From IMG/VR virus record IMGVR_UViG_3300027156_000002: a DNA stretch of 64,000 nt. The stretch is one strand, 5' to 3'. This DNA comes from a virus. Taxonomy: Duplodnaviria > Heunggongvirae > Uroviricota > Caudoviricetes. Position 1 is the first letter of the stretch. Each line of letters starts with the position of its first letter. Shown one piece after another: positions 3,001 through 56,513 of this stretch. The position numbers were made by a program, and so were the translations under genes. The notes beneath the pieces were generated by a model. It was given only the letters and a program-made list of their open reading frames with translations, did not search any database and had not been told where the DNA came from.

Positions 3001-3111
3001 TTGCGTGAGTTCACGAGCCTGTAAAGCGAAACTTGGGCGGAACAGAATTCTGTAGAATTTACTGTTCTCGTTATAGTCATCATTATATGGTTCGGTATTG
3101 AAATCGATCAT
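1..3111 (-). CDS. DUF4815/VrlC-like large virion structural protein (runs off the left edge of the window)
   Basis: Missing from the ORF track because it has no stop in the window. ATG at 3111 reads MIDFNTEPYNDDYNENSKFYRILFRPSFALQARELTQMQSILQKQIQRHGDNIFKQGAMV..., the typical N-terminus of this T4-like family; spot checks show the frame still open downstream. Confidence 0.85.
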   Translation of the reverse strand, partial: MIDFNTEPYNDDYNENSKFYRILFRPSFALQARELTQMQSILQKQIQRHGDNIFKQGAMVLPGQISIDTNAQYVKLQPLYNGIAVETFLDSLNNKVIVGANSNLKAEVIKVQSAEQNEPSTIYIRYKDSGNNGTTKVFAAGEVISTEDNLYSFQAVAENPTGIGSIVSIERGVYYVNGFFVLVESHSIILDKYSNTPSYRVGLNVEEKIVTPEEDATLLDNAQNSYNYAAPGSHRYYIDLTLKKISLESASDASFIELLRVEDGVNKKITTKTEYSVLEQTLARRTYDESGDYTVRNFNIDIREHRNNDRGAWTQNTAFLIGDIVTNAGKTYVAKNSGTSVTTAPVHTTGIAYDGPGSTGIQWEYTLTPQYNRGIYKNGDESKLAIGLEPGKAYVRGYEIEKIATEYVSVNKSREYAQADNAFISAELGSYVTVTNLCKIPPIIYNSVVNLRDQLTTTRGTEAGTIIGTARVRAIEWDNGSIGSNTATYKLFLYDVNLNAGKEFSRNVKSIGLNSWGFTADINPITTPLIGSVTAAGTTVTGNGTSFLTQLVVGDYIYVNGASYRVTAVASQTSLTISASLTATNAAFSLVKTNILATNLEKTVFSLPYSTVRSLRSALATNDTAYTVSAVYTETVASGNININAASGTFASGAVTGNFIVTRNDNGDVLPINSVTVTGSSAVINVGNANDGKQCTIVATVNKTGSSSTEKTKTHVTGATVSFTTQATATPTILSLGKADCWKINSVKMDSGSFSSPSGSYTIDISDRYDFDNGQRATHYDLGRIVLKDTYAPPSAPIQVTFEYFTHSVGDYCSVNSYPATISYSQIPSDLRDGLDFRPRIDDDGVSFSSITQLPRRGSNITTDFTYYLARKEKIAVDVNGNFFNISGTSSINPGDAEDSSTGMVLYKLTLAPYTFDTTNNNVIIDSIDNKRYTMRDIGKLEKRIDNLEYYTSLSLLEQQTESLKIQDSTGMDRMKNGFIVDNFTGHGIGAAESVDYRCSVDMNKGELRPFFTMKNVNLIEKASTNSARAAAKYAQY

Positions 3112-3143
3112 CTTTTACTCTTTTAGTTAATTACTATTATTTA

Positions 3144-6174: not shown

Positions 6175-7782
6175 CTAAGTGTTAAAGTTGGTCGGGTCAT
6201 TAACATATGATCCATCGTCGTTTAAGAACCAACCAGCGTCTGCATATGGGTTCAGTAACACGAAACCTGTGTCGACTGGAGTCGCTAAATCGTCTCCAAT
6301 TCCCGTTCTATCAATATATTTATCCATCGAAAATACATTACTATCGGGTGTAGTAATATAATCTTCAAGTCCTTTGGTTACACCTTTAGCCGTAATGTAA
6401 TCAATATTGACTGTAACTTCGTCTTGAGCTGTTACAGAAAGATTTTTAATCATCGCCTCAAGACTTAATGCAACATCAAATTCATTCTTAATTTCATATT
6501 CACCAAATACAGCCATACCAGCTGGGTGTAATAATGTTTTAACAATAGATTTGTAAGAATCTAAACTCTCATCAATTTTTAAAACATAAGAAAACGCTTG
6601 ATAGTATCTACTGTCTTGAATAAAGATAGCATCGTTTAAGAAGCTATCATTTGTAACATAATATCCTGGATACTTGGCGAGTGCTCCAAGATTAATCTTA
6701 ATAACTGCTGGATCATATGGGCTAGAGAGTTCATTGACTCCACCAGAAGATCCGAATTCACGAATAATTTCACCAGCATAGCTGCCATCCATAGCATCAG
6801 TTACGGCATAGTCCGATTTATTAATTGTACCTGTTTCTACAAAACCATCAGTTGCTTCAGCAACGCTAATATTTCCACCAATAATCTGTAGTGAACTTCC
6901 GCCAGTTCCAGTTGCCGATTGTCCCAAGTCTGCATAAATCGTTGATGCAAAATCCGTAGAATAACCAGTACCAAACTTAATAAACTCTGCGTCTAAGATA
7001 CCACCTTCTGTATTGGTTCTTGTAATCTTCATAATAGAACCAGTACCCTTACCATTTCTAATGGCGTAAAGCTGTCCAACTTTAAACCCAGTTCCTGGAG
7101 TCAATACTTTTAGCGTTGATGTTGTAGCTAGAATGTCTGCTGTGAAATAGATGTCCGCAGTTTTATAGCGAAGTCTATCACCAACACCGATATTACCGAA
7201 AAATCTGCGATCTACATAAAATTCATAGATGTCTTCTGCAATCTCAACAACACGCTCAACTTCAATTTCAATATACTGTCTTCTATCAATCTGAACACGA
7301 ATAATTTTAGTTGGAGTAATAACATCAACAAGTTTACCAACAATTTGGTCTGGATGGCCAGATGTAACTTTTGCAATAATAGAAACGTCTTGGTTCCACT
7401 TACCATCGGATACACGAAAAACTTGTTTAGATGGATAATCAATAGAAACTTCTTTATTGAATAAAAGTCTAAACAATAATTTATATGACGACTCAGATCC
7501 TTTTGCCAAATATTGGTCTTTGATTCTCTGTAAAAGAAATCTAGGATCTGCATTAATTTGAGTTGGCAAATTAATACCAACTTCATTCCTAAAGTGTTGT
7601 ATAAAAGAATCTAAAGTTGTATCTAGATCTCTTAAATCTCTAAGATCTGGAGAAGTAGTTTCCAAATATTCATAATACGCTTTTAAGAAAGCAACGAAAG
7701 TTTGATGATCTTCACGAACAAACTCAGGGAGTTGTCCTTCTACTAATGAAGATATCTTGCTTCTTCTTAATGGAGCTGTCAT
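6175..7782 (-). CDS. gp7: Baseplate wedge initiator gp7-like
   Basis: QLPEFVREDH..FLKAYYE, YLAKGSESSYKLLFRLLF, IQDSRYYQAFSYV..LHPAGMAVFG. Confidence 0.85.
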   Translation of the reverse strand: MTAPLRRSKISSLVEGQLPEFVREDHQTFVAFLKAYYEYLETTSPDLRDLRDLDTTLDSFIQHFRNEVGINLPTQINADPRFLLQRIKDQYLAKGSESSYKLLFRLLFNKEVSIDYPSKQVFRVSDGKWNQDVSIIAKVTSGHPDQIVGKLVDVITPTKIIRVQIDRRQYIEIEVERVVEIAEDIYEFYVDRRFFGNIGVGDRLRYKTADIYFTADILATTSTLKVLTPGTGFKVGQLYAIRNGKGTGSIMKITRTNTEGGILDAEFIKFGTGYSTDFASTIYADLGQSATGTGGSSLQIIGGNISVAEATDGFVETGTINKSDYAVTDAMDGSYAGEIIREFGSSGGVNELSSPYDPAVIKINLGALAKYPGYYVTNDSFLNDAIFIQDSRYYQAFSYVLKIDESLDSYKSIVKTLLHPAGMAVFGEYEIKNEFDVALSLEAMIKNLSVTAQDEVTVNIDYITAKGVTKGLEDYITTPDSNVFSMDKYIDRTGIGDDLATPVDTGFVLLNPYADAGWFLNDDGSYVNDPTNFNT

Positions 7783-24539: not shown

Positions 24540-24568
24540 ATTATACCTCAATATTGAATTAAAGTAAA
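24540..24568 (-). promoter_or_regulatory. Sigma70-type early promoter
   Basis: TTTACT-17-TATAAT with TTAATTCA directly after the -35. Confidence 0.8.
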
Positions 24569-27597: not shown

Positions 27598-27699
27598 GAT
27601 AGTTCCTTGTAAAAGTTAATATGATCCACTGCATAATTAATGTCGCCACTTTAGTTAGTACAAGAGCCAATTGGGCATCGGTTGCTAACATCGAGCAAA

Positions 27700-28000
27700 G
27701 ACTTCACTAATTCGTGGTAGGTTATTCTGTTACGAGGAAACCTACCGAAACCCTAAGCAGTGTTTAGGCTGCTAATGCGAACTGTGCGTCGTTTGCGTTT
27801 ACGTTGTTTACTTTTTACGACTCTCTGTGTCGTGCTGTCCACTCTGTTACTTATTGCCCTGTCGAAACCATGGCACCCCCAACTGAACATACTCAGCGTT
27901 TCGCTTTGCTACCGATAACTCGGTTCGGAATATGTTCAGGTGGAGGTGGTGGGAGTCGAACCCACGTCCAGAACACCTTTCTCATTGCTTCATACAGCAA
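27700..28000 (-). ncRNA. ssrA: Circularly permuted (two-piece) tmRNA
   Basis: Acceptor piece about 28000-27939 (T arm GTGGGTTCGACTCCCAC, then CACCTCC-A-CC) lies upstream of the coding piece starting GGGGGTG at 27880 (G3.U70, A73). Tag GCA AAC GAC GCA CAG TTC GCA TTA GCA GCC TAA = ANDAQFALAA* at 27796-27764. The 3' end of the coding piece is approximate. Confidence 0.92.
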
Positions 28001-28003
28001 TTC

Positions 28004-28174
28004 TTACATTACGCCATCTTTTGTTGACTTGATTAGCGTAACTTGTCCGTTCGCACCAATAACAACTTTAAACATATCTCCCTCTTTCCATCCTTCAGGA
28101 AGTTCTTTCTGTTCAAATATAATTATATTTGGTGCAATCTCAGCATTTAATACCATTATACCCTGCTTTCTCAT
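28004..28174 (-). CDS. Small hypothetical protein (56 aa)
   Basis: MRKQGIMVLNAE..LPEGWKEGDMFKV..; read manually, below the track cutoff. Confidence 0.5.
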   Translation of the reverse strand: MRKQGIMVLNAEIAPNIIIFEQKELPEGWKEGDMFKVVIGANGQVTLIKSTKDGVM

Positions 28175-48363: not shown

Positions 48364-49107
48364 CTACTCCTTTAATCGAACTCTAAATGCTAATGAGTAT
48401 CTAAAACATTCTGCCCATTCAGCTACAGGTCTGGTTGTGTGTAATGTCCTACCATCATAAAGGATGATTCGACCTGGAAGTGTTGGGATTGTTGCGTATG
48501 GGAAGCCAACAGAGAAACCTCTGGATTGTCCCCATCCTTTTTGGAACTGCTGATGATCGCCTGTTGGATCATCGTTCTCATAGAATATATTTTCACCGAA
48601 CCACGTTGGATGCCAAACTGGATTGGCTAGGTATAGTAACGTGTAGTTTCTGGTTTCATTCATATCGATGGTGTCACGATGAACACCATGAGATCTTTTA
48701 ATCTCTTCGTTACCTTGCACGTTCACATAAACACGCTGCAAGAAATTTGGATTATTTTTAGACCAGCATCCTTCTTTATCGCCATCAATGATGAATCTAT
48801 TACCGAGATGCTTGTTTATTTCTTTCCAGAGTTTGTAGATTGGTCGATGACGAAACTCTAAATCATTCTCAGAGTTGCCAAACGTAACCCTGTGCATGAA
48901 CTGACTATTCCATGATGGAAGGTCTTTATTGTTGTATTCTTTTTTGTTTTCTTCTGGGAAATATGTTACAACAGTGCCAACTTTTGGATAGTTGGCATCC
49001 TTCATCATGGCATAGTGCTCAAGTCCACGGATATATTTCCAAACTTCTTCTTGCTGCTGTTTTGATATCACATCATCGTGTACTTCGTACTTAAATTGTT
49101 TTTCCAT
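48364..49107 (-). CDS. 2OG-Fe(II) oxygenase (prolyl-hydroxylase-like)
   Basis: HRD..TLLYLAN..W.GE..F..PGRIILYDG..LH..RYSLAFR. Confidence 0.8.
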   Translation of the reverse strand: MEKQFKYEVHDDVISKQQQEEVWKYIRGLEHYAMMKDANYPKVGTVVTYFPEENKKEYNNKDLPSWNSQFMHRVTFGNSENDLEFRHRPIYKLWKEINKHLGNRFIIDGDKEGCWSKNNPNFLQRVYVNVQGNEEIKRSHGVHRDTIDMNETRNYTLLYLANPVWHPTWFGENIFYENDDPTGDHQQFQKGWGQSRGFSVGFPYATIPTLPGRIILYDGRTLHTTRPVAEWAECFRYSLAFRVRLKE

Positions 49108-49136
49108 AATATCCTCACATAGTAGTATACTACTAT

Positions 49137-49613
49137 TTATGCAGCTTGCATGAACGACTTATATCTGTCAGCAGCATATGATGCAGCAAATGCTTTTGGT
49201 TTCACCATAGGAACTACGTTACACATTCCTTTGATGTAACCAACTGCTTCGTTTATCACACAAGATGATCCATACATTTCATCTGGGTTAATATCCAAAT
49301 GAACTTGCACTTCTCTATCTTCTAGTACGTCATGAATTTTGGTGTATAGATCTGCAATCTTATAAACTTCATTCATAAGACGCATACGTGGTCTATCACG
49401 TTTCTGATCCCAGTCACGTTCACGTTGCACTTCACCAAAAATCTTACAGCCATTGTTTCCATTGATATGGACAACAACAACCATAATGTAATCTGCGTAC
49501 CAATCTTTTCCAATTAAAAATCGTTCAGAATCTCCACCGATATAAACTTTTGTTTCTGGAGTCTGTGCCATGATGAAATCTCTAACTTCATCAATGTCAA
49601 TTGCTTTACGCAT
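49137..49613 (-). CDS. RNase H-like protein, YkuK/DUF458 family
   Basis: VYIGGDS..RLMNEV..VHLDINP..KPKAFAASYAAD. Confidence 0.82.
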   Translation of the reverse strand: MRKAIDIDEVRDFIMAQTPETKVYIGGDSERFLIGKDWYADYIMVVVVHINGNNGCKIFGEVQRERDWDQKRDRPRMRLMNEVYKIADLYTKIHDVLEDREVQVHLDINPDEMYGSSCVINEAVGYIKGMCNVVPMVKPKAFAASYAADRYKSFMQAA

Positions 49614-49634
49614 ATTACACCTCTATTATTAGAA

Positions 49635-49708
49635 TGGAGCGGAGTGAGAGAATCGAACTCTCAACCGAAGATTGGAAATCTGCTGTTTTACCATTAAACT
49701 AACCCCGC
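49635..49708 (-). tRNA. tRNA-Gly(TCC)
   Basis: Cloverleaf; loop TT-TCC-AA; CCA encoded. Confidence 0.93.
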
Positions 49709-49710
49709 AT

Positions 49711-49790
49711 TGGGTGCAGGGTTTTCACCTGCTGCTAATCAAACCTTTCGGTGATTAATCTGCCACCTCTTTATATTCAGTGGACTTTTC
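49711..49790 (-). ncRNA. Putative small structured RNA ending in a T-arm-like hairpin plus ACCCA
   Basis: Hairpins CCAC/GTGG; TAATCA-ACC-GAAA-GGT-TGATTA; GCAGG-TGAAAAC-CCTGC-ACCCA. Confidence 0.4.
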
Positions 49791-49864
49791 TGGCATCCCG
49801 ATAGGGACTCGAACCCCAACCAACAGTTTTGGAGACTGCTATGCTGCCATTACACCATCGAGAC
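49791..49864 (-). tRNA. tRNA-Trp(CCA)
   Basis: Loop CT-CCA-AA; G73; CCA end. Confidence 0.92.
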
Positions 49865-49867
49865 ATT

Positions 49868-49943
49868 TGGTGCCCACGGAGAGACTCGAACTCCCGACCT
49901 CCTGATTACTAATCAGATGCTCTACCAACTGAGCTACGTGGGC
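49868..49943 (-). tRNA. tRNA-Thr(AGT), A34
   Basis: Stem TCTGA/TCAGG, loop TT-AGT-AA; canonical D and T arms; CCA end. Confidence 0.9.
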
Positions 49944-49947
49944 GATT

Positions 49948-50021
49948 TGGTGGAGGATGAGAGAATCGAACTCTCAATCTCGGCTTGCAAAGCCGATGTT
50001 ATCCCATTTAACTAATCCCCC
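49948..50021 (-). tRNA. tRNA-Ala(TGC)
   Basis: G3.U70; loop TT-TGC-AA. Confidence 0.93.
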
Positions 50022-50023
50022 AA

Positions 50024-50242
50024 TTATTTTGATCTTGGAGTAGTACAACTATCACTCCAAAGATCTTGTGCTTGTTTCTTATATTCTTCTAATTCATCAG
50101 CCATTTGCATAGTAGCTAATCTTTTTGCTTCTGACTTACTCACAACATCATCTCGTTGAAAGATTGCATTCCAACGATTATCATATTCATCTTGTGTTAC
50201 ACTAAATGGTCTTGGTTTACTTCCTTTGCCACCATCAGTCAT
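50024..50242 (-). CDS. Small hypothetical protein within the tRNA array
   Basis: MTDGGKGSKPRP..YDNRWNAIF motif. Confidence 0.6.
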   Translation of the reverse strand: MTDGGKGSKPRPFSVTQDEYDNRWNAIFQRDDVVSKSEAKRLATMQMADELEEYKKQAQDLWSDSCTTPRSK

Positions 50243-50367
50243 CTTCCTTGTCCCCTATATTTCTTGTGAGTCTTTTTAGATTTATTTAAGGTGCTTGTTT
50301 TACTTCCATTCTGGGAAGTTTTCTTAACAACTCTTTGATGCTTACTAACACTGCCTTTACCTGCCAT
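50239..50367 (-). CDS. Small basic protein (42 aa) ending KKYRGQGR
   Basis: Read manually; AAGGAGA SD; C-terminal motif familiar from T4-like phages. Confidence 0.6.
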   Translation of the reverse strand: MAGKGSVSKHQRVVKKTSQNGSKTSTLNKSKKTHKKYRGQGR

Positions 50368-50386
50368 GTTATCTCCTTTTATATAT

Positions 50387-50461
50387 TGGCTCCGAAGGGT
50401 GGGATCGAACCACCGACCAATTGATTAACAGTCAACTGCACTACCGCTGTGCTACTTCGGA
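50387..50461 (-). tRNA. tRNA-Asn(GTT)
   Basis: Loop CT-GTT-AA. Confidence 0.93.
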
Positions 50462-50469
50462 ATAAACTT

Positions 50470-50543
50470 TGGTGCCCCATGAGAGAATCGAACTCCCGTC
50501 CTCGGATTACAAAACCGATGTTCTACCATTTAACTAATAGGGC
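50470..50543 (-). tRNA. tRNA-Thr(TGT)
   Basis: Loop TT-TGT-AA. Confidence 0.92.
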
Positions 50544-50553
50544 TATTATATAT

Positions 50554-50630
<77 letters not shown>

Positions 50631-50637
50631 ATAAAAC

Positions 50638-50712
50638 TGGTGGTGATGGTTGGATTCGAGCCAACGACCTACTGCGTATGAAGCAGTTGCACTACCACTG
50701 TGCTACATCACC
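50638..50712 (-). tRNA. tRNA-CAT, probably elongator Met
   Basis: G1-C72 paired; loop TT-CAT-AC; Met versus Ile2 not certain. Confidence 0.8.
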
Positions 50713-50718
50713 GAAATT

Positions 50719-50801
50719 TGGTGCCCCAAGCGAGACTCGAACTCGCACACCGAAGTACTGGCTTCTAAGACCAGCGTGTCTACCAATTCCACCATCGGGG
50801 C
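50719..50801 (-). tRNA. tRNA-Leu(TAG)
   Basis: Loop CT-TAG-AA; long variable arm. Confidence 0.93.
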
Positions 50802-50804
50802 TAA

Positions 50805-50981
50805 CATTGTTGAAAGTACTGTTGTATGTTTAAGAGTCGGATAATAAAGACTCTCCTAATCGCATCGTTCACGTAGCGTCAGCAAGCTACTATTTCCTAG
50901 ATATCGGGCTGACTTGATTAGGATGGTGATCTTCCATAACAGTTTGGATTGCTTATTCTTTCGCACACACTTTCAACAATG
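50805..50981 (-). ncRNA. Putative structured RNA A (177 nt)
   Basis: 13-bp terminal helix CATTGTTGAAAGT/ACTTTCAACAATG; nested TCCTAATC/GATTAGGA and GTCAGC/GCTGAC. Confidence 0.6.
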
Positions 50982-51167
50982 CCCTCTGTCCCTACACAGA
51001 GAACCTTGTGTCTTGCTAATGTTGGACGACGATCCTCAGGTCTTGACATCCGTATGCGAAGTCCACCATCACTCGCATATTTTTAATGATGGGACTTACA
51101 CCCACCTCGCAGAAGTGTGGATAACAGAATAGGGATTATCTGTCATAGCCATTGCGGGACTAATTTC

Positions 51168-51241
51168 TGGTTGCGGATGATGGACTCGAACCACCAACTG
51201 CAGCGTATGAGACTGCTGAGATACCTTTTCTCTAATCCGCT
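51168..51241 (-). tRNA. tRNA-CAT, initiator (fMet)-like
   Basis: A1.A72 mismatch, A73; loop CT-CAT-AC. Confidence 0.8.
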
Positions 51242-51242
51242 A

Positions 51243-51602
51243 TTAACCTGCATTTCTCGTAATAAAATTCATTCGCATCTTACGAGAATCAAAAAACTTT
51301 TCTACTACACGTTTGACCACACTTGGATCAAACTCTTTACAACTAAACACATCTAGGTATATATGTCTATCGTGATCAATAAAATGTCCAGTGATAGATG
51401 ATGTAGTAATCAACTGCATCAAACTATACCCTTCTTTATCAGGATCTCCTGGACAAAGAAATTCAATAATTGGCTCACCATGAGCAACCATATCAATTTC
51501 CTTCACCAATGTCTTGACAAAATTATAAATGTTTTGCTTATCTTTGATCGAATCAACATCACATTCAGAACAATCAAGCATTAAGTGATAACCCCAATAC
51601 AT
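51243..51602 (-). CDS. speD: S-adenosylmethionine decarboxylase proenzyme (SpeD-like)
   Basis: GYHLMLD..GYSLMQLITTSSITGHF..YLDVFSC. Confidence 0.8.
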   Translation of the reverse strand: MYWGYHLMLDCSECDVDSIKDKQNIYNFVKTLVKEIDMVAHGEPIIEFLCPGDPDKEGYSLMQLITTSSITGHFIDHDRHIYLDVFSCKEFDPSVVKRVVEKFFDSRKMRMNFITRNAG

Positions 51603-51620
51603 ATTTTCCTTTCACTAACT

Positions 51621-51695
51621 TGGCGACTCGTGGGAGAATCGAACTCCCATGATCGGATAGACAATCCGACGTAATGACCATTATACGAACGAGCC
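51621..51695 (-). tRNA. tRNA-Asp(GTC)
   Basis: Loop TT-GTC-TA. Confidence 0.92.
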
Positions 51696-51703
51696 AAATA
51701 ATT

Positions 51704-51791
51704 TGGTGGGTGCTCTCCGATTCGAACAGAGAAGGCACTAAGACAAGAGATTTACAGTCTCCCCCCGATACCATTACGGGACTAAGCACCC
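51704..51791 (-). tRNA. tRNA-Tyr(GTA)
   Basis: Loop CT-GTA-AA; long variable arm. Confidence 0.9.
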
Positions 51792-51795
51792 ATGA

Positions 51796-51915
51796 TATTA
51801 GTTTTGCTGACGCACTATTTGCTATGCTCAACGGAATTAGCTGCAGCATTTACCGTTTATGTACATAGTTACTCAGGCATGATCAAGCCCATGGCTTACA
51901 TCAGCAAAACTAATA
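51796..51915 (-). ncRNA. Putative structured RNA B (120 nt)
   Basis: Perfect 15-bp terminal inverted repeat TATTAGTTTTGCTGA/TCAGCAAAACTAATA. Confidence 0.55.
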
Positions 51916-51919
51916 CCAC

Positions 51920-52146
51920 ATTTAATTGCACTGGGATGTTTGGCAACAACTACCACTCGGTAGCTAACCACGTCATCGTCTGACGATTGGTTCCCATCCA
52001 CATTACGTTCCAACTAACTCCAGCGTGACCACCGTATCCGTCCATAGACTTCGTTTCCATCTTTCCTGATACATGACGCACCCATCTCCGTCGAGACAGC
52101 CAATGCTCATGCATCCTACTGGTTTGGTAACCCAATGCAATTAAAT
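51920..52146 (-). ncRNA. Putative structured RNA C (227 nt)
   Basis: 16-bp terminal helix (ATTTAATTGCA-U.G-TGGG) with several internal hairpins. Confidence 0.55.
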
Positions 52147-52147
52147 C

Positions 52148-52222
52148 TGGTACACGATAGGAGAATCGAACTCCTCTTCCTGCCGTGAAAGGGCAGTGTC
52201 CTAACCGATAGACGAATCGTGC
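52148..52222 (-). tRNA. tRNA-Glu(TTC)
   Basis: Loop CT-TTC-AC. Confidence 0.93.
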
Positions 52223-52241
52223 ATTTCAATCAAGAACATTA

Positions 52242-52270
52242 ATTATACATGATACTTGAATTAAAGTAAA
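52242..52270 (-). promoter_or_regulatory. Internal sigma70-type promoter of the tRNA array
   Basis: TTTACT-TTAATTCA..-TATAAT, 17-bp spacer, 20 nt upstream of tRNA-Glu. Confidence 0.8.
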
Positions 52271-52292
52271 GCAATATTTTATTGCAACATCT

Positions 52293-52369
52293 TGGAGTGA
52301 GTGACAGGACTCGAACCTGCATGAAACGGATTTGCAATCCGTCGCCTAACCATTCAGCAGCACACTCAC
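52293..52369 (-). tRNA. tRNA-Cys(GCA)
   Basis: Loop TT-GCA-AA; U73. Confidence 0.92.
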
Positions 52370-52375
52370 ATATTC

Positions 52376-52454
52376 TGGTACCCCTGCTCAGATTCGAACT
52401 GAGAACAACTTCTCCTTTTGAGAGAGACGACTTTACCAATTTGTCCACAAGGGC
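52376..52454 (-). tRNA. tRNA-Leu(CAA)
   Basis: Loop CT-CAA-AA; short variable arm. Confidence 0.88.
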
Positions 52455-52456
52455 AT

Positions 52457-52531
52457 TGGTGGGCTGAGAGAGAATTGAACTCTCACTCAATCGATTATGA
52501 GTCGACTGCTTTACCATTAAGCTATCAGCCC
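52457..52531 (-). tRNA. tRNA-CAT, Ile2 (lysidine)-like
   Basis: GCAGTCGA-CT-CAT-AA-TCG context resembles bacterial Ile2. Confidence 0.78.
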
Positions 52532-52537
52532 AACAAC

Positions 52538-52612
52538 TGGCACCCCCACGAGGAATCGAACCTCGATTCGCAGTTTAGAAGACTGCTGCATTATCCATTA
52601 TACTATGGGGAT
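52538..52612 (-). tRNA. tRNA-Arg(TCT)
   Basis: Loop CT-TCT-AA. Confidence 0.92.
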
Positions 52613-52617
52613 AAACT

Positions 52618-52700
52618 TGGTGCGAATGGTCGGACTCGAACCGACAAGCCGAAGCGGGAGATTTTAAGTCTCCTGTGTTTACCAATTTCACCACACTCGC
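52618..52700 (-). tRNA. tRNA-Leu(TAA)
   Basis: Loop CT-TAA-AA; long variable arm. Confidence 0.93.
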
Positions 52701-52708
52701 AAAAACTT

Positions 52709-52798
52709 TGGCGGAAGATGTGAGAGTCGAACTCACTCAGCTGCTTTCACAACTGTACGGATTAGCAATCCGCTGCATTACCATCCTGCCCATCTTCC
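52709..52798 (-). tRNA. tRNA-Ser(GCT)
   Basis: Loop TT-GCT-AA; long variable arm. Confidence 0.93.
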
Positions 52799-52805
52799 AA
52801 AACTT

Positions 52806-52881
52806 TGGCACCCAATGAAGGAATCGAACCTCCACTTCTGCGTTCGTAGCACAGCGTGATCATCCATTTCACCAATCGGGT
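52806..52881 (-). tRNA. tRNA-Arg(ACG)
   Basis: Loop CT-ACG-AA. Confidence 0.92.
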
Positions 52882-52886
52882 AAATT

Positions 52887-52976
52887 TGGCGGAAGCGGTG
52901 AGATTCGAACTCACGGACCATTTCTGATCGTCTGTTTTCAAGACAGGTGCAATAAACCAGACTCTGCCACACTTCC
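52887..52976 (-). tRNA. tRNA-Ser(TGA)
   Basis: Loop CT-TGA-AA; long variable arm. Confidence 0.93.
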
Positions 52977-52981
52977 ATATT

Positions 52982-53057
52982 TGGTGGGACGTGAGAGACT
53001 CGAACTCCCGACAGCCTGCGTGTAAGGCAGGAACTCTACCAACTGAGTTAACGTCCC
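52982..53057 (-). tRNA. tRNA-Val(TAC)
   Basis: Loop CT-TAC-AC. Confidence 0.93.
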
Positions 53058-53065
53058 ATAATAAC

Positions 53066-53140
53066 TGGAGCAGGATATCGGGTTCGAACCGATGACATTT
53101 TCGTTGGCAACGAAACATTCTACCACTGAATTAATCCTGC
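53066..53140 (-). tRNA. tRNA-Gly(GCC)
   Basis: Loop TT-GCC-AA. Confidence 0.92.
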
Positions 53141-53147
53141 ATAAACT

Positions 53148-53222
53148 TGGTACCCGATAGTGGTAACGATCCACTCACCTATCGCTTATCAAGCGATTGC
53201 TCTACCACTGAGCTAATCGGGT
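53148..53222 (-). tRNA. tRNA-Ile(GAT), atypical T-loop
   Basis: Loop TT-GAT-AA; T-loop ATCGTTA. Confidence 0.88.
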
Positions 53223-53223
53223 A

Positions 53224-53299
53224 TGGTGCTGCCTAGTAGAATCGAACTACTTTCCGAGGTTCTTCAGACCCCTGCTATGACCACATCAGCTAAAGCAGC
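53224..53299 (-). tRNA. tRNA-Phe(GAA)
   Basis: Loop CT-GAA-GA. Confidence 0.9.
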
Positions 53300-53301
53300 A
53301 T

Positions 53302-53377
53302 TGGGGTGTTTAATGAGGATTGAACTCATACTATCTCGGTCACAGCGAGATGTGCAGACCACTACACTATAAACACC
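53302..53377 (-). tRNA. tRNA-His(GTG)
   Basis: G-1:C73 encoded; loop CT-GTG-AC. Confidence 0.92.
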
Positions 53378-53387
53378 ATAGTAACTT

Positions 53388-53461
53388 TGGTAGGAGCACA
53401 GAGAATTGAACTCTGATTTGCTGGTTAAAAGCCAGCTACTTTACCATTAAGTTATACTCCC
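53388..53461 (-). tRNA. tRNA-Lys(TTT)
   Basis: Loop CT-TTT-AA. Confidence 0.93.
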
Positions 53462-53545
53462 ATATTAAAACACACTACATCCAGTCCACGGACACTCTTG
53501 CGAATGCGACTCATACTTACAGACCCACTGCAATATGTTTTAATA
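53462..53545 (-). ncRNA. Putative structured RNA D in the Gln-Lys spacer
   Basis: 12-bp inverted repeat CATATTAAAACA/TGTTTTAATATG abutting both tRNAs; internal GCATTC-GCAA-GAGTGT GNRA hairpin. Confidence 0.45.
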
Positions 53546-53619
53546 TGGCACCCGAAATAAGAATCGAACTTATACTAACAGAGTCAAAGTCTGCTGTGCT
53601 ACCACTACACCATTCGGGA
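53546..53619 (-). tRNA. tRNA-Gln(TTG)
   Basis: Loop CT-TTG-AC; U1.U72. Confidence 0.9.
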
Positions 53620-53664
53620 ACATTTGGTACGCAAATTTTTAAAGAACAGATGGGACGATGCCCT

Positions 53665-53705
53665 AAAAACAAAAAACCCCTGGATTTTCATCGCAGGGGT
53701 TTTGG
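53665..53705 (-). terminator. Intrinsic terminator (attenuator) upstream of the tRNA array
   Basis: AAAACCCCTG-CGATGAAAATC-CAGGGGTTTT followed by TTGTTTTT. Confidence 0.85.
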
Positions 53706-53744
53706 AAAACAAACTTTGTATTAGTTTACTTTACAAAACCCCCA
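53694..53744 (-). promoter_or_regulatory. Antiterminator hairpin overlapping the leader-peptide end and the terminator 5' arm
   Basis: TGGGGGTTTTG-T-AAAGTAAACT [AATACAA] AGTTTGTTTT-C-CAAAACCCCTG: about 21 pairs (4 G.U) with one mismatch. Confidence 0.75.
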
Positions 53745-53845
53745 GTGTCTAACTCAATCGCAAATGTATACTGTGGGCGTGAGCATGACCATCCACTATT
53801 AAGTGGTAGATGCTTTCTGCCTAAGGATATCATTTTCGAGTTCAT
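53726..53845 (-). CDS. Leader peptide containing all 20 amino acids (putative attenuator sensor)
   Basis: MNSKMISLGRKHLPLNSGWSCSRPQYTFAIELDTGGFVK*; the ATG lies 7 nt past the -10 hexamer (leaderless). Confidence 0.7.
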   Translation of the reverse strand: MNSKMISLGRKHLPLNSGWSCSRPQYTFAIELDTGGFVK

Positions 53846-53851
53846 GTAAGA

Positions 53852-53917
53852 ATTATACACCTTTTCTGAATTAAAGTAAAGCACTAAATTTAATAACCCT
53901 ACTTCTTGCAGGGTTAT
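53852..53917 (-). promoter_or_regulatory. Main promoter of the tRNA array with upstream palindrome
   Basis: TTTACT-17-TATAAT 53880-53852; ATAACCCT-N9-AGGGTTAT 53893-53917. Confidence 0.8.
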
Positions 53918-53991
53918 TATTTTCAGCCAGTAATCTATTTAGTCAAATTTTACCTGTGTTTTGAATAAAAGTAAAATAAATGTGAAAAAAT

Positions 53992-54073
53992 CTGTTGTTA
54001 TCGGACAACAGAAAAACCGACGTCTGTTTAGGTAGTACGCTTACCTTAAATTATTGTTGTTTTCGGACAACAA
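53992..54073. repeat. Two tandem palindromes TGTTGT-N6-ACAACA
   Basis: CTGTTGT-TATCGG-ACAACAG (53992-54011) and TTGTTGT-TTTCGG-ACAACAA (54054-54073). Confidence 0.7.
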
Positions 54074-54091
54074 TCAAACCGAGAATGGTTA

Positions 54092-54364
54092 TCACGCTTC
54101 TTGTGCTTTCGCTGCGTGCTTCGCCATTCTATCTGCGATGTATGTGTAGTGTTTCATTGTGAGAGTGTCTCCATCATCACTTTCTTGCACAACTGCATCT
54201 ACCAAGTGTACGATATCATCGTCACTCTTTGCATATGCCATTGACCAAGATAATAGACGATGCAACAAATTGTGATCTATACAAATAGTTCCATCATCCA
54301 TTTTTTCTACAACAATGGTTTTTACCATTTTTTTCATTTTCGTTCTCCTTAAATTATACGCCAA
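54092..54364 (-). CDS. Hypothetical protein
   Basis: Likely start MKKMVKT, after an AAGGAG SD. Confidence 0.55.
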   Translation of the reverse strand: MAYNLRRTKMKKMVKTIVVEKMDDGTICIDHNLLHRLLSWSMAYAKSDDDIVHLVDAVVQESDDGDTLTMKHYTYIADRMAKHAAKAQEA

Positions 54365-54846
54365 CCATCTCTAAACAATAATCTTACCGTTTCATTGGAA
54401 ACTTGTATGATGCAGTTTTGATATCCATCGATCAATGTTCCATCATCTGTAGTAATTGTAATTTTACGATTACCCAGTGGTGGTTTCATTTCAGCTTTAA
54501 CAATAATAACTTTACCCTTTACAGGATTTGTTGGTAATGTTATTGTAGTAGCTTTTTCTGCATCAACACCAATATAACAATCATCTTCAGCAACGTTGTA
54601 AGATTCGCTTACAAGTGTAGCATTTAAAATACAGTTTGAATCGTCTTCTCCTGTGACGGAAATAAGACCATCCTCTGTTACTTCAATTCCGCTGCCGATT
54701 TGAACAACACCTAACTGATTCTTTGAAGCAATCTCAACATCCAAAGATACTGGCAATACACCAGTTGGTTGTATGGGAGATGGCTCAGGATTCTGCTTTA
54801 ATGCTCTTCCAGCAAGGACTGCATTTGGCGGTCTAGTGTAAGACAT
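54349..54846 (-). CDS. Paralog 4 of a small fibre/adhesin-like domain family
   Basis: YIGVD..TITLP..GKVIIVK..IDG..VRLLFRDGWRII. Confidence 0.65.
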   Translation of the reverse strand: MSYTRPPNAVLAGRALKQNPEPSPIQPTGVLPVSLDVEIASKNQLGVVQIGSGIEVTEDGLISVTGEDDSNCILNATLVSESYNVAEDDCYIGVDAEKATTITLPTNPVKGKVIIVKAEMKPPLGNRKITITTDDGTLIDGYQNCIIQVSNETVRLLFRDGWRII

Positions 54847-54858
54847 CTATTTCTCCAA

Positions 54859-55383
54859 TTAAATAATATTCCACTTACCATTACGGAACACAACTGAGAG
54901 ACTTGCATAGCTAGTCAATGTTTTTGTCGCAGTTCCATCAATAAATTCAGCACCAGTACCCTTTACAGTTGTGTTACCAGATGCAGCTTCATTTTTAATA
55001 ATGTATGTTTTGCCAACAACACCTGCAGGTAATGTAATTAAAGCAGGGGTGGCAGTAACACCAATATATTCATCAGTGGCTGTTGCTGTGTAGTTTGTAG
55101 CAGTTCCAGTTGTTTTAAGAATACCTTCAGTTGCTGCAGATATTGTTACAACACCACTTGCAGCAGATAAACTAATGTTATCTCCAGCTAGAAGTTTGTA
55201 AACAACTGGTGTTCCATTGAGGGTTATGGCAGTGGTTGCATCAATCTCATCAAATGTAACATCAGATGTAATTTCAATGCTTTGTGGAATGGATATGATA
55301 CCATTTAAATCAACGTTAATATTGGATCCAACTTGAAGTTGACCAAGATCAGTTGTCGTTCCTATTGGGACTAGATATGACAT
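54859..55383 (-). CDS. Paralog 3 of a small fibre/adhesin-like domain family
   Basis: YTATATDEYIGV..ITLPAG..GKTYIIKN..IDG..SLSVVF..W.II. Confidence 0.65.
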   Translation of the reverse strand: MSYLVPIGTTTDLGQLQVGSNINVDLNGIISIPQSIEITSDVTFDEIDATTAITLNGTPVVYKLLAGDNISLSAASGVVTISAATEGILKTTGTATNYTATATDEYIGVTATPALITLPAGVVGKTYIIKNEAASGNTTVKGTGAEFIDGTATKTLTSYASLSVVFRNGKWNII

Positions 55384-55392
55384 ATTTTATCC

Positions 55393-55791
55393 TTATAAAA
55401 TTTTCCACTCAACACCAGAATACACTAGTGCCAATGAACCATATGGGACGTTGATAGTTGCAGTGGCTGCGCCATCAATAGTTCCTGCTGCTGGAGTAAT
55501 GGTGATTGGATTTGGATTATTTGCCAAACCCAACCCATCTTTAATATTAAATACACGACCTGTAACTCCAGCTGGTAGTGTCACTGCAACTGGTACTTGT
55601 GGGGTTACTTCAACTGAAACTACATCATCATCATTAGTCACTGCTACTGGAGTTGTGGTTGCAATACGAACTGCCAGAGTTTGTATGCCAGTTGCTGATA
55701 TGGTAATTTGATTTGAACCTGTTCCCGATGTCGGCGAAACAGAAATACCTGTTCCCGCAAGAATCGAGGTAGGATTATTTGAATAAGACAT
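55393..55791 (-). CDS. Paralog 2 of a small fibre/adhesin-like domain family
   Basis: VTLPAGVTGRVFNIKDG..PITI..IDG..YGSLALVYSGVEW. Confidence 0.65.
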   Translation of the reverse strand: MSYSNNPTSILAGTGISVSPTSGTGSNQITISATGIQTLAVRIATTTPVAVTNDDDVVSVEVTPQVPVAVTLPAGVTGRVFNIKDGLGLANNPNPITITPAAGTIDGAATATINVPYGSLALVYSGVEWKIL

Positions 55792-55815
55792 ATTGTTTCC
55801 TTAATCTTTTAGAGC

Positions 55816-56094
55816 TTAATGTTTAACAAAATCAGAAATCATAATACCGAGAGAAACTGCAGAAGATAGCAAAGCAAATGCTGCTGTTGTAATAGTCTTG
55901 AGAATATAAGATCGCAGATCGCTTTCTCTACTTTCAAGTTTAATCTGTCTGTCTTCAATTTCATCCATACGTGATTGAATGGAATCGTGTCTCTGACGAG
56001 AAAGAATTACATGGGCAGCAAGATTCTCGCCCTCGATGCTCTCTGGAGATTCAACCTTAGTTTTGGTGAAGATTAACATCACACAATACTCCAC
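55816..56094 (-). CDS. Coiled-coil protein with C-terminal TM helix
   Basis: SRQRHDSIQSRMDEIE..TAAFALLSSAVSLGIMI; resembles XhlA/hemolysin-like small proteins. Confidence 0.55.
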   Translation of the reverse strand: MEYCVMLIFTKTKVESPESIEGENLAAHVILSRQRHDSIQSRMDEIEDRQIKLESRESDLRSYILKTITTAAFALLSSAVSLGIMISDFVKH

Positions 56095-56513
56095 GCATCT
56101 CCATTAAAGATTACGGTGATGCTACCAAACGATGTGTTAATAGTGGCAGTGCCAATATCAACATTTTCACCTGTTCCTTGAACTATAATTGGTGTTGTTG
56201 GTGATGCATTACCATCACAATCCTTAATGATATACACAGTTCCCGTAATTCCAGTTGGTAGTGTAATAACTACTTGTCCTGCATGAGTTACACATAAAAA
56301 ATAATCTGCAAGTGTAGCAGTATACTCTGGTGTGGTGACTTCAGTTACAGGAACTGGACTTGGTTTTGCATAGTTAACGACATTGATAACATCGTTATCA
56401 TTACCACATGCTGTAGTAGGTAAAACTGGGAATGGTGGGAATGGTGGAAAATAAACCAATGGATTAATTCCCTGATATTGACTTTGATCCATACAAGCTC
56501 CAAACACACCCAC
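56079..56513 (-). CDS. Paralog 1 of a small fibre/adhesin-like domain family
   Basis: YTATLADYFLCV..ITLPTG..GTVYIIKD..PII..FGSITVIFNGDAW. Confidence 0.65.
   Translation of the reverse strand: MGVFGACMDQSQYQGINPLVYFPPFPPFPVLPTTACGNDNDVINVVNYAKPSPVPVTEVTTPEYTATLADYFLCVTHAGQVVITLPTGITGTVYIIKDCDGNASPTTPIIVQGTGENVDIGTATINTSFGSITVIFNGDAWSIV

What the first reader, a model, noticed from the sequence alone, without database searches (positions are those of the whole stretch)
53665..53880. All-20-amino-acid leader peptide and attenuator at the head of the phage tRNA array: a candidate general tRNA-shortage sensor
Seen in sequence (minus strand): a TTTACT-17-TATAAT promoter (53880-53852) has an ATG at the expected +1 position (53845), so the ORF would be leaderless. 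It opens a 39-codon ORF, MNSKMISLGRKHLPLNSGWSCSRPQYTFAIELDTGGFVK*, containing all 20 amino acids and 33 different codons, including rare ATA, AGA, CTA, TTA and TCG. By standard pairing, 27 of the 28 downstream tRNAs have a codon in it; only Leu TTG is absent. Its last codons and stop (GGG GGT TTT GTA AAG TAA ACT) form a hairpin of about 21 bp with AGTTTGTTTTCCAAAACCCCTG, which contains the 5' arm of a strong intrinsic terminator (53705-53665) lying 46 nt before tRNA-Gln. Established knowledge: in trp/his/thr attenuators a ribosome stalled early leaves the antiterminator free, and one that reaches the end melts it so the terminator forms; those leaders are enriched for one amino acid. Inference: this leader samples nearly every isoacceptor, so loss of any charged host tRNA (starvation or an anticodon nuclease) would switch on the first 15 phage tRNAs (Gln to Cys). 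An internal promoter at 52270 would drive the rest independently. I know of no description of such an attenuator, but could not search the literature.
Basis: partly seen in the sequence, partly recalled or inferred. Interest (0 to 1): 0.95.

Follow-up and report, generated by a model that had tools for sequence, protein, structure and literature searches.

The report
All-amino-acid leader gating phage tRNA genes
At the head of its tRNA gene array, this uncultured freshwater T4-like phage and its relatives carry a tiny translated gene that spells nearly all 20 amino acids and is wired to a switchable transcription stop, most likely a trp-operon-style sensor that turns on phage tRNA genes when decoding slows for lack of almost any tRNA.

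Summary

I found 55 distinct homologous loci, with 55 distinct peptides of 33-45 aa falling into six clusters (median identity between clusters 29%).
- 41 peptides contain all 20 amino acids and 12 contain 19. Random 39-mers of this phage's composition do so 0.3% of the time.
- Both codon boxes of Ser, Leu and Arg, plus Ile ATA, are covered far more often than synonymous-codon nulls predict.
- The terminator (at least nine stem sequences) and the antiterminator covary.
- A search for the leader's own motif, without a tRNA anchor, found 17 leaders, all at the head of a tRNA array.

Best reading (0.6): ribosome-mediated attenuation that samples nearly every isoacceptor.

Caveats:
- Half the relatives have a second promoter after the terminator.
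- Codons overlapping the antiterminator (Asp and Val in this window) should not be sensed.
- No experiment exists.

I found no published description. This scan has noted codon-matched leader attenuators before tRNA blocks in other phage genomes; this is a single-leader, leaderless version of that.

The parts
53947..53975 (-). Upstream promoter-like site (TTTACT-17-TAAAAT), conserved in close relatives
   Evidence: an RNA contig of run X17 reaches 53974
53892..53918 (-). PeSL-type stem-loop just upstream of the leader promoter (9-bp stem, 9-nt loop)
   Evidence: present in most relatives; RNA contigs of three runs end at 53913-53919; PeSL cassettes are described in PMC2839356
53852..53880 (-). 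Leader promoter, TTTACTTTAATTCA-N9-TATAAT, one of a phage early-promoter family
   Evidence: 5 copies against 0.25 expected
53726..53845 (-). Leaderless 39-codon leader ORF (ATG 53845, TAA 53728-53726) with all 20 amino acids, 33 codons, and both codon boxes of Ser, Leu and Arg plus Ile ATA
53783..53813 (-). Mid-ORF hairpin whose 3' arm holds the Trp codon; possible RNA polymerase pause or 'region 1' element
   Evidence: present in all 18 representatives; interior of the ORF has mean z -1.56
53723..53743 (-). Region 2: 5' arm of the antiterminator, made of the last five codons, the stop codon and 3 nt beyond
53695..53715 (-). Region 3: 3' arm of the antiterminator; 53704-53695 is shared with the terminator's 5' arm
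   Evidence: 7 of 11 pairs show compensatory changes
53665..53703 (-). Intrinsic terminator: 10-bp stem with a CCCCTG/CAGGGG core, 11-nt loop, then TTGTTTTT after the 3' arm
   Evidence: -17.4 kcal/mol; RNA contigs of two runs end at 53659 and 53671
53621..53648 (-). Conserved block directly 5' of tRNA-Gln, kept in nearly all relatives with or without a second promoter; probably the pre-tRNA 5' leader
53546..53619 (-). tRNA-Gln, first gene of the array (27 tRNAs found by ARAGORN down to 49635)
52242..52270 (-). Second copy of the same promoter family inside the array, 19 nt before tRNA-Glu, with no leader ORF

Best explanation
This is a ribosome-mediated transcription attenuator placed before the phage's tRNA array.

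Proposed mechanism:
1. An early sigma-70-type promoter starts the RNA at the A of the ATG, so a 70S ribosome can load as soon as the 5' end emerges.
2. The 39-codon ORF uses all 20 amino acids and nearly every isoacceptor class.
3. If the ribosome keeps pace with RNA polymerase, it sits on the last codons and the stop codon (region 2) while regions 3 and 4 are made. The terminator then forms and transcription ends 45 nt before tRNA-Gln.
4. If the ribosome is held up at a codon in roughly the first 30 codons, or never starts, region 2 stays free. It pairs with region 3 (-20.8 against -17.4 kcal/mol for the terminator). The terminator cannot form and polymerase runs into the tRNA genes.

The result would be feedback: phage tRNAs are made when decoding is slow, whether from starvation, decay of host tRNAs during infection, or tRNA-cutting defence nucleases.

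Shown: the anatomy, its conservation, covariation, amino-acid and codon-box coverage, synteny with tRNA arrays, and transcription of the leader in nature.
Inferred: translation of the ORF, the direction of the switch, and the natural trigger.
For: - Anatomy matches the description.
- Leaderless start: the same promoter and spacing open four long ORFs in the window. 50 of the 55 distinct relatives have a -10 box (TATAAT in all but two) followed by 5-9 nt, almost always 6-7, and ATG. One clade (4 loci) has instead a purine-rich 5' UTR and GTG and still keeps the ORF; one more (L026) has an ATG without such a box.
- Family: 98 loci anchored on tRNA-Gln (42 + 56, some of them copies of one record) and 17 found through the leader motif. 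They give 55 distinct peptides in six clusters, with median between-cluster identity 29%. 41 have all 20 amino acids and 12 have 19.
- Nulls: 0.3% for random peptides. Neutral drift from an all-20 ancestor keeps all 20 in 3% of cases at 60% identity and about 1% at 30-40%.
- Isoacceptor coverage: 132 of 144 codon boxes in 18 representatives, against 109-113 +/- 3.5 under phage, uniform or pooled-leader codon usage.
- Constraint on the peptide itself is weak: variable sites by codon position are 30/28/45. Amino acids change place, for example Cys and Val.
- Every locus has a terminator, with at least nine different stems. Every locus also has a 2:3 hairpin whose 5' arm is the ORF's end, at -16 to -31 kcal/mol against -10 to -20 for the terminator.
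- Covariation of the 2:3 helix: 86.5% of cells paired against 77.7 +/- 1.1 in shuffles, 7 of 11 pairs with double changes, slid controls 32-68%.
- In the motif search that did not use a tRNA anchor, 17 of 17 leaders head a tRNA array.
- River metatranscriptome contigs cover the leader in four runs. Two of them end at the terminator without loose ends, which is only a weak hint.
Against: - 29 of 55 distinct loci have a good sigma-70 promoter between terminator and tRNA-Gln. There the array does not depend on read-through.
- In a strict sensing window (A site at least 13 nt upstream of region 2), only 2 of 18 representatives hold all 20 amino acids. The tail overlapping region 2 supplies the rest (Asp and Val in this window). 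The classical geometry would not sense those codons.
- Internal Met codons are not enriched (my count).
- RNA contigs extend to 53913-53974, upstream of the predicted +1, so some transcripts are not leaderless.
- The number of distinct codons exceeds a uniform-usage null only weakly (P = 0.08).
- I did not establish a region-1 partner for region 2, and there is no demonstrated pause site.
- There is no cultured relative and no functional data.
Confidence: 0.6

Rival explanations
1. It is a general translation-coupling sensor or infection timer. The attenuator reports only whether ribosomes follow polymerase at all (host shut-off, ribosome-targeting toxins, late-infection decline). The identity of individual codons does not matter.
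For: The default fold without a ribosome is the antiterminator. Leaderless initiation makes output depend on free 70S ribosomes and fMet-tRNA. Tail codons that complete the amino-acid set lie where they cannot be sensed. Antibiotic-sensing attenuators work this way (my own knowledge).
Against: This does not explain why 41 of 55 divergent peptides keep all 20 amino acids. It also does not explain why both codon boxes of Ser, Leu and Arg plus ATA are over-represented, or why rare residues reappear at new positions when lost.
Confidence: 0.15
2. It is an autonomous early mini-gene: a PeSL-flanked ORFan with its own promoter and terminator. The peptide has a function of its own, and its position before the tRNA array is historical.
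For: T4-type phages are rich in small early genes flanked by promoter/stem-loop cassettes (PMC2839356). Half of the relatives have a separate promoter for the tRNAs after the terminator. Some motifs, such as HLPL..GW and RP, are conserved within the largest cluster.
Against: Third-position excess is weak (30/28/45) and clusters diverge to 29% identity. There is no PHROG family. A functional peptide gives no reason for complete amino-acid and codon-box coverage, or for a covarying hairpin that links the stop codon to the terminator's 5' arm. Synteny with tRNA arrays was 17 of 17 in an anchor-free search.
Confidence: 0.12
3. The terminated RNA of about 180 nt is a trans-acting small RNA, possibly dual-function, and the ORF is secondary.
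For: A promoter-to-terminator unit of sRNA size is transcribed in nature at depths equal to or above its neighbours. Attenuator-derived sRNAs are known (rnTrpL, PMC6614838, listed).
Against: There is no Rfam family. Sequence outside the paired arms is poorly conserved between clusters. The reading frame is kept across all clusters with in-frame indels. Coverage statistics point to decoding, not base pairing.
Confidence: 0.05
4. It is a chance ORF next to an ordinary terminator.
Against:: the property recurs in six deeply divergent clusters against null rates of 0.3-1%.
Confidence: 0.01

Closest known systems
Leader-peptide transcription attenuators of amino-acid operons (trpL, hisL, leuL, thrL, pheL; multivalent ilvGMEDA leader)
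   Same: A short translated ORF in the 5' leader, an intrinsic terminator, and an antiterminator that shares the terminator's 5' arm. A ribosome reaching the ORF's end masks that antiterminator, and a stalled ribosome gives read-through.
   Different: There is no run of one or a few regulatory codons; each amino acid and most isoacceptor classes appear about once. The mRNA is leaderless. The genes controlled are tRNA genes of a phage, not biosynthetic or synthetase genes. A 1:2 anti-antiterminator was not demonstrated, so the untranslated default is read-through. There is no Rfam leader family match.
Ribosome-stalling attenuators that sense translation inhibitors (ermC/cat type and the Term-seq class of antibiotic-responsive leaders; my own knowledge)
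   Same: Any slowing of the leader's ribosome flips a terminator/antiterminator or sequestering hairpin; the signal is the state of translation.
   Different: Those depend on drug- and peptide-specific arrest and control resistance genes. Here the conserved feature is codon coverage, and the target is the tRNA supply.
T-box riboswitches
   Same: Transcription antitermination in response to shortage of charged tRNA.
   Different: A T-box binds one specific uncharged tRNA directly, without translation, and controls aaRS or amino-acid genes. This element has no T-box features or Rfam hit and would read the whole pool through the ribosome.
Leaderless polycysteine short ORFs acting as Cys-responsive attenuators in mycobacteria (bioRxiv 10.1101/834739, found)
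   Same: A leaderless short ORF at the 5' end of an operon whose translation tunes downstream expression.
   Different: Those have a single-amino-acid run, belong to the host and control Cys-related genes; according to that abstract, control is of operonic gene expression.
PeSL cassettes of T4-type phages (Arbiol et al. 2010, PMC2839356)
   Same: A stem-loop followed by a strong sigma-70-like early promoter between genes of a T4-type phage; the hairpin at 53918-53892 plus the promoter at 53880-53852 fit this.
   Different: Published PeSLs end in a Shine-Dalgarno sequence and start codon. Here the ATG sits at +1. A PeSL explains the promoter but not the ORF/antiterminator/terminator logic.
Codon-matched leader-peptide attenuators before tRNA blocks noted earlier in this scan in crAss-like and giant phages (e1-1919666, e1-5365171 and others; AI notes, unpublished)
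   Same: A mini-ORF plus switchable terminator in front of phage tRNA genes.
   Different: Those are reported to use several leaders, each spelled in the amino acids of its own tRNA block. Here one leaderless ORF covers all 20 before a single large array, in a different phage lineage. Coverage is kept even where the array has shrunk to six tRNAs (L109, L110).

Membership tests
Ribosome-mediated leader-peptide transcription attenuator (trpL/hisL kind) | Short ORF in the 5' leader that is conserved as an ORF | tested here: met
   The ORF has 33-45 codons in all 55 distinct full-length loci. Indels are in frame, and two initiation designs occur (leaderless ATG; GTG after a purine-rich UTR).
Ribosome-mediated leader-peptide transcription attenuator (trpL/hisL kind) | The ORF is actually translated | not testable with these tools
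   The evidence is indirect only: four long genes use the same promoter-ATG spacing and the frame is conserved. No ribosome profiling exists for an uncultured phage.
Ribosome-mediated leader-peptide transcription attenuator (trpL/hisL kind) | Intrinsic terminator between the leader ORF and the controlled genes | tested here: met
   A perfect GC-rich stem plus T-run was found in every locus, with at least nine stem sequences. Two RNA contigs end there (weak).
Ribosome-mediated leader-peptide transcription attenuator (trpL/hisL kind) | Mutually exclusive antiterminator whose 5' arm lies under a ribosome at the ORF's end | tested here: met
   Covariation: 7 of 11 pairs with double changes, 86.5% paired against 77.7% shuffled.
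Ribosome-mediated leader-peptide transcription attenuator (trpL/hisL kind) | Cluster of regulatory codons for the amino acid(s) tied to the controlled genes | tested here: not met
   There is no run of any codon. Instead, 17-20 amino acids appear in the first 25-37 codons (sum 323 against 270 expected, z about 9).
Ribosome-mediated leader-peptide transcription attenuator (trpL/hisL kind) | Pause or 1:2 hairpin that synchronises ribosome and polymerase and sequesters region 2 without translation | tested here: inconclusive
   All representatives have a mid-ORF hairpin that contains the Trp codon. Pairing with region 2 was not shown, and the untranslated fold is the antiterminator.
Ribosome-mediated leader-peptide transcription attenuator (trpL/hisL kind) | Read-through responds to supply of charged tRNA | not testable with these tools
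   This needs reporter or in-vitro coupled assays.
Rfam leader and T-box families (Trp_leader, His_leader, Leu_leader, Thr_leader, T-box) | Match to the covariance model | tested here: not met
   cmscan at E <= 1 over 49000-55000 gave only tRNAs and a 31-nt terminator-like fragment hit (RF02744, 24 bits against a gathering score of 88).
PeSL cassette (T4-type promoter-early stem-loop) | Stem-loop plus strong sigma-70-like promoter in an intergenic region of a T4-type phage | tested here: met
   Hairpin 53918-53892 and promoter 53880-53852. The phage is T4-like by its baseplate proteins.
PeSL cassette (T4-type promoter-early stem-loop) | Shine-Dalgarno sequence and start codon at the 3' end of the cassette | tested here: not met
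   The ATG lies 6 nt after the -10 box, with no room for an SD. The definition was read in PMC2839356.

The most novel reading that the evidence does not exclude
This would be the first described pan-tRNA sensor: one leaderless 'pangram' leader ORF that lets the ribosome test nearly every isoacceptor in a second or two and converts any shortfall into transcription of a phage's own tRNA set. It would be an inducible counter-measure to tRNA depletion, whether from starvation, host-tRNA decay during infection or anticodon-nuclease defences. The fact that tail codons also complete the set hints that full-length translation matters in a way the trp model does not capture.
Probability: 0.5. Interest if true: 0.92.

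Novelty: new variant of a known kind. Interest (0 to 1): 0.86.

Why it matters
Why phages carry tRNA genes is still debated. The candidates are codon compensation, replacement of decaying host tRNAs, and escape from tRNA-cleaving defences (for example PMC10264068, found). Almost nothing is known about how phage tRNA arrays are regulated.

A conserved attenuator whose leader samples the whole genetic code would show that these phages make tRNAs on demand. It would also give a direct read-out of what the phage treats as a translation problem.

The element extends leader-peptide attenuation, a textbook mechanism tied to single amino acids, to a general sensor and to RNA genes. It is compact (about 230 nt) and could be tested or reused as a reporter of tRNA availability.

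The comparative signal (complete amino-acid and codon-box coverage in a 40-codon ORF) is also a simple search criterion for finding more such elements.

Tried and rejected
- Own genome: none is held.
- INPHARED phages: there is no relative of the leader using the window's, L028's or L025's version. Hits were only tRNA-Gln or promoter-like matches.
- Cultured T4-type phages Acj61 and 133: tRNA-Gln sits inside the array, and the head of the Acj61 array follows an ordinary 60-aa gene with no terminator.
- T4: tRNA-Gln is also first, but only 97 nt with a MotA-box-like promoter precede it, and there is no leader.
- Rfam and PHROGs gave no family for the RNA or the peptides.
The 52-aa extended frame found two relatives.
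- An internal Met codon is present in only about 60% of groups, which is what chance gives, so elongator Met is not specially covered (count).
- Distinct-codon count against a uniform synonymous null reached only P = 0.08. The box test is the robust one.
- Codon-position bias is weak (P = 0.08), so I do not use it as proof of coding.
- RNA contigs: no contig of this phage's own sequence lies over 53470-53650 in any of the four runs. Such holes prove nothing, and contigs cannot give starts, ends or levels.
- A MotA-type or sigma-70 promoter in the conserved block 53648-53621 was considered and rejected: no acceptable -10 box, and the start site would fall inside the tRNA.
- One anchored locus (L064) has no leader next to tRNA-Gln, but another tRNA lies upstream and the contig ends, so it is uninformative.
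- Structure and complex prediction were not used, because they are not relevant to a 39-aa leader.

Full report
**What is in the window**

All elements are on the minus strand.
- A promoter TTTACT-17-TATAAT lies at 53880-53852 (10 of 12 consensus positions).
- Six bases later comes ATG 53845, opening a 39-codon ORF that stops at TAA 53728-53726.
- The ORF has all 20 amino acids and 33 different codons.
- Its last five codons, the stop codon and three further bases (53743-53723) pair with 53715-53695 in a hairpin of about 21 bp.
- The outer ten bases of that 3' arm (53704-53695) all but coincide with the 5' arm (53703-53694) of an intrinsic terminator (53703-53665).
- tRNA-Gln starts 45 nt further on, at 53619. 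It is the first of 27 tRNAs found by ARAGORN. A probable tRNA-Tyr is hinted at only by Rfam.
- Folding the RNA up to the terminator's 5' arm gives the long hairpin at -46.3 kcal/mol (z = -4.05). With the 3' arm added, the two structures compete.
- No Rfam family matches.

The description is accurate to the base.

**Is the promoter real, and is the ORF leaderless?**

The extended motif TTTACTTTAATTCA..TATAAT occurs five times on this strand, against 0.25 expected. At 24568 and 31054 it is followed, after the same six bases, by ATGs that open ORFs of 116 and 178 codons with PHROG matches. Looser copies do the same for ORFs of 318 and 69 codons.

Leaderless early genes are therefore a habit of this phage. 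The phage is T4-like by its baseplate proteins and by earlier notes on the same genome. The copy at 52270 runs straight into tRNA-Glu with no ORF.

**Relatives**

No genome is held for the window, and no cultured phage in INPHARED has the element. Public metagenomes do. Sources of the family:
- Two hits in the protein database.
- 21 loci from an exact pre-tRNA anchor.
- 42 viral and 56 metagenome loci anchored only on the 5' half of tRNA-Gln.
- 17 more from a leader motif search that did not use a tRNA anchor.

After removing duplicates and truncated contigs, there are 55 distinct loci. There are also 55 distinct peptides of 33-45 residues, counting those from the motif search. They form six clusters at 50% identity, with median identity between clusters of 29%.

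50 of the 55 distinct loci have a -10 box (TATAAT in all but two) followed by 5-9 nt, almost always 6-7, and ATG. One clade (4 loci) instead has a 28-nt purine-rich 5' UTR and GTG, yet keeps the ORF; one more (L026) has an ATG without such a box.

**Amino-acid coverage**

41 of the 55 peptides contain all 20 amino acids, 12 contain 19 (Val or Cys is usually the one missing), and two contain 17-18. The nulls:

| Null | Rate of all 20 amino acids |
|---|---|
| Random 39-mers of this phage's composition | 0.31% |
| Real 39-residue windows of its proteins | 0.10% |
| The 76 ATG ORFs of 35-45 codons in the window | 1 of 76 (this one) |
| Neutral drift from an all-20 ancestor, 90% identity | 35% |
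| Neutral drift, 60% identity | 3% |
| Neutral drift, 30-40% identity | about 1% |

Residues also move. Cys is lost from its usual column after Trp in several lineages and reappears near the N-terminus in two of them. In L004 the only Val is replaced, and a Val codon is inserted elsewhere by an in-frame 3-nt insertion.

The peptide sequence itself is only weakly constrained: variable sites by codon position are 30/28/45. What is conserved is the set of residues, not the sequence.

**Codon coverage**

In 18 representatives below 70% similarity, I scored eight classes: both boxes of Ser, Leu and Arg, plus Ile ATA and Ile ATH. 132 of 144 were present. Resampling synonymous codons gives 109-113 +/- 3.5, whether by phage usage, uniform usage or the leaders' own pooled usage (0 of 3000-5000 simulations reach 132).

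It is what a sensor of tRNA species, rather than of amino acids, would need. The representatives share ancestry, so the z-scores are inflated, but the deep clusters each score 7-8 of 8.

**Switch structure**

- Every locus has a perfect GC-rich stem plus T-run, with at least nine different stem sequences.
- In every locus, the ORF's last codons pair with the flank and 5' arm of that terminator. These hairpins fold at -16 to -31 kcal/mol, against -10 to -20 for the terminator.
- The arm sequences differ between clusters.
- On a 41-sequence alignment, the 11 outer pairs are 86.5% paired, against 77.7 +/- 1.1 in shuffles and 32-68% when slid. Seven pairs show changes on both sides.
- The stop codon lies inside or just after the 5' arm, except in one clade with an eight-codon extension.
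- A mid-ORF hairpin that always contains the Trp codon is also present. It could be a pause element, but I could not show that.

**Link to tRNA genes**

The anchored searches are biased towards tRNA-Gln, so I also searched for the leader's own motif. All 17 genuine hits head a tRNA array: 14 lie directly before tRNA-Gln, two lie before tRNA-Arg(TCT) of a reduced six-tRNA array, and one has a gene inserted in between.

T4 also starts its array with tRNA-Gln, but there only 97 nt with a MotA-box-like promoter precede it, and there is no leader. Acj61 and phage 133 lack the element too.

**Expression**

Six river metatranscriptome runs hold part of the stretch. In the four I laid, contigs cover the leader with no mismatches. 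Two end at 53659 and 53671, at the terminator's T-run, without loose ends, and none of them continues to tRNA-Gln.

These are contigs, so this is only a weak hint of termination. The contigs also reach 53913-53974, upstream of the predicted +1. Some transcripts therefore start further up, or are processed at the foot of the upstream stem-loop.

**Mechanism and its weak points**

The best reading is classical ribosome-mediated attenuation with a leader that samples the whole code. A ribosome on the ORF's end allows the terminator to form. A delayed or absent ribosome leaves region 2 free to form the antiterminator, so the array is transcribed. Three things do not fit neatly.
1. 29 of 55 distinct loci have a good promoter between terminator and tRNA-Gln; the window and 25 others have none. 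In half of the family, read-through can only add to a constitutive supply.
2. Geometry. With the A site at least 13 nt upstream of region 2 as the sensing window, the leaders still show 16-20 amino acids in 25-37 codons (sum 323 against 270 expected, z about 9). But only two of 18 have all 20 there. The tail that overlaps region 2 supplies exactly the missing ones, which in this window are Asp33 and Val38. Region 2's G/T-rich sequence gives Gly, Val, Phe and Cys for free. That does not explain Asp, Lys, His or Trp in other tails, and I leave this unexplained.
3. Nothing has been tested at the bench.

**Comparison and novelty**

It works like trpL/hisL/ilv leaders, but it fails their defining feature of a regulatory codon run, it matches no Rfam leader, and it controls RNA genes.
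- Drug-sensing stalling attenuators share the logic that any delay induces.
- T-boxes share the signal but not the mechanism.
- Mycobacterial leaderless poly-Cys ORFs share the leaderless design.
- The promoter and upstream hairpin are a PeSL-type cassette without the Shine-Dalgarno sequence.

Five full-text searches found no paper linking leader peptides or attenuation to phage tRNA genes. Earlier AI notes of this scan report codon-matched leader attenuators before tRNA blocks in crAss-like and giant phages. I did not test those. If they hold, the present element is the single-leader, all-amino-acid, leaderless form in a T4-like lineage.

**Verdict**

- Observation confirmed.
- Confidence in the attenuator-sensor mechanism: 0.6.
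- Novelty: a new variant of a known kind of control.
- Interest is high.

Noticed in passing
window 39273, 34785, 31019, 24533 (minus strand ATGs): Four protein genes (318, 69, 178 and 116 codons) start exactly 6 nt after the -10 box of T(T/G)TAC(A/T)-17-TATAAT promoters. This T4-like phage seems to make leaderless early mRNAs routinely, unlike published PeSL cassettes, which carry a Shine-Dalgarno sequence.
   Followed up: partly
window 53783-53813 and equivalent places in L005, L014, L025, L027, L028, L056, L060, L077: Every leader has a mid-ORF hairpin whose 3' arm contains the single Trp codon. This may explain why Trp is almost never lost, and it could be a polymerase pause hairpin.
   Followed up: partly
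window 53621-53648: A block of about 28 nt (GTTCTTTAAAAATTTG...) directly 5' of tRNA-Gln is conserved across nearly all relatives, whether or not a promoter precedes it. It is probably the pre-tRNA 5' leader or a processing signal.
   Followed up: no
window 53913-53919: RNA contigs from three river metatranscriptome runs end at the 5' foot of the stem-loop 53918-53892. This could be a processed, hairpin-protected 5' end or a start from the weak TTGACT-16-GAAAAT site at 53946-53919.
   Followed up: no
window 51708-51791: Rfam gives a tRNA-Sec-like hit (27.8 bits, below threshold) in a gap of the array where ARAGORN finds nothing. It is probably the phage's long-arm tRNA-Tyr, which relatives encode at the same place (for example L111, L119).
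   Followed up: no
window 54349-56513: Four tandem paralogous small proteins (165, 174, 132 and 144 aa) all end in a G-x-W-x-I-(I/V/L) motif, just upstream of the leader. Neither the 165-aa copy nor the 90-aa ORF next to it had a PHROG or INPHARED match.
   Followed up: partly
L026 about 7250-7600: Between the leader's terminator and tRNA-Gln, this relative carries three tandem copies of a stem-loop + TTTACT promoter + short repeat unit (357 nt). This looks like PeSL cassettes multiplying in place.
   Followed up: no
L109 1848-2053, L110 2324-2529: These phages have an array of only six tRNAs starting with tRNA-Arg(TCT), yet they keep a 41-residue leader with 19 amino acids. Leader coverage therefore does not simply mirror the array's content.
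   Followed up: partly
L135 (phage T4) 4032-4128: T4's tRNA array also begins with tRNA-Gln. The 97-nt spacer has a MotA-box-like TGCTTTA and a TATTAT -10 box but no mini-ORF or terminator. The position is syntenic but the control differs.
   Followed up: yes
window 27673-28030: ARAGORN reports a permuted tmRNA (tag ANDAQFALAA) in the same phage, which fits a genome heavily invested in keeping translation running.
   Followed up: no
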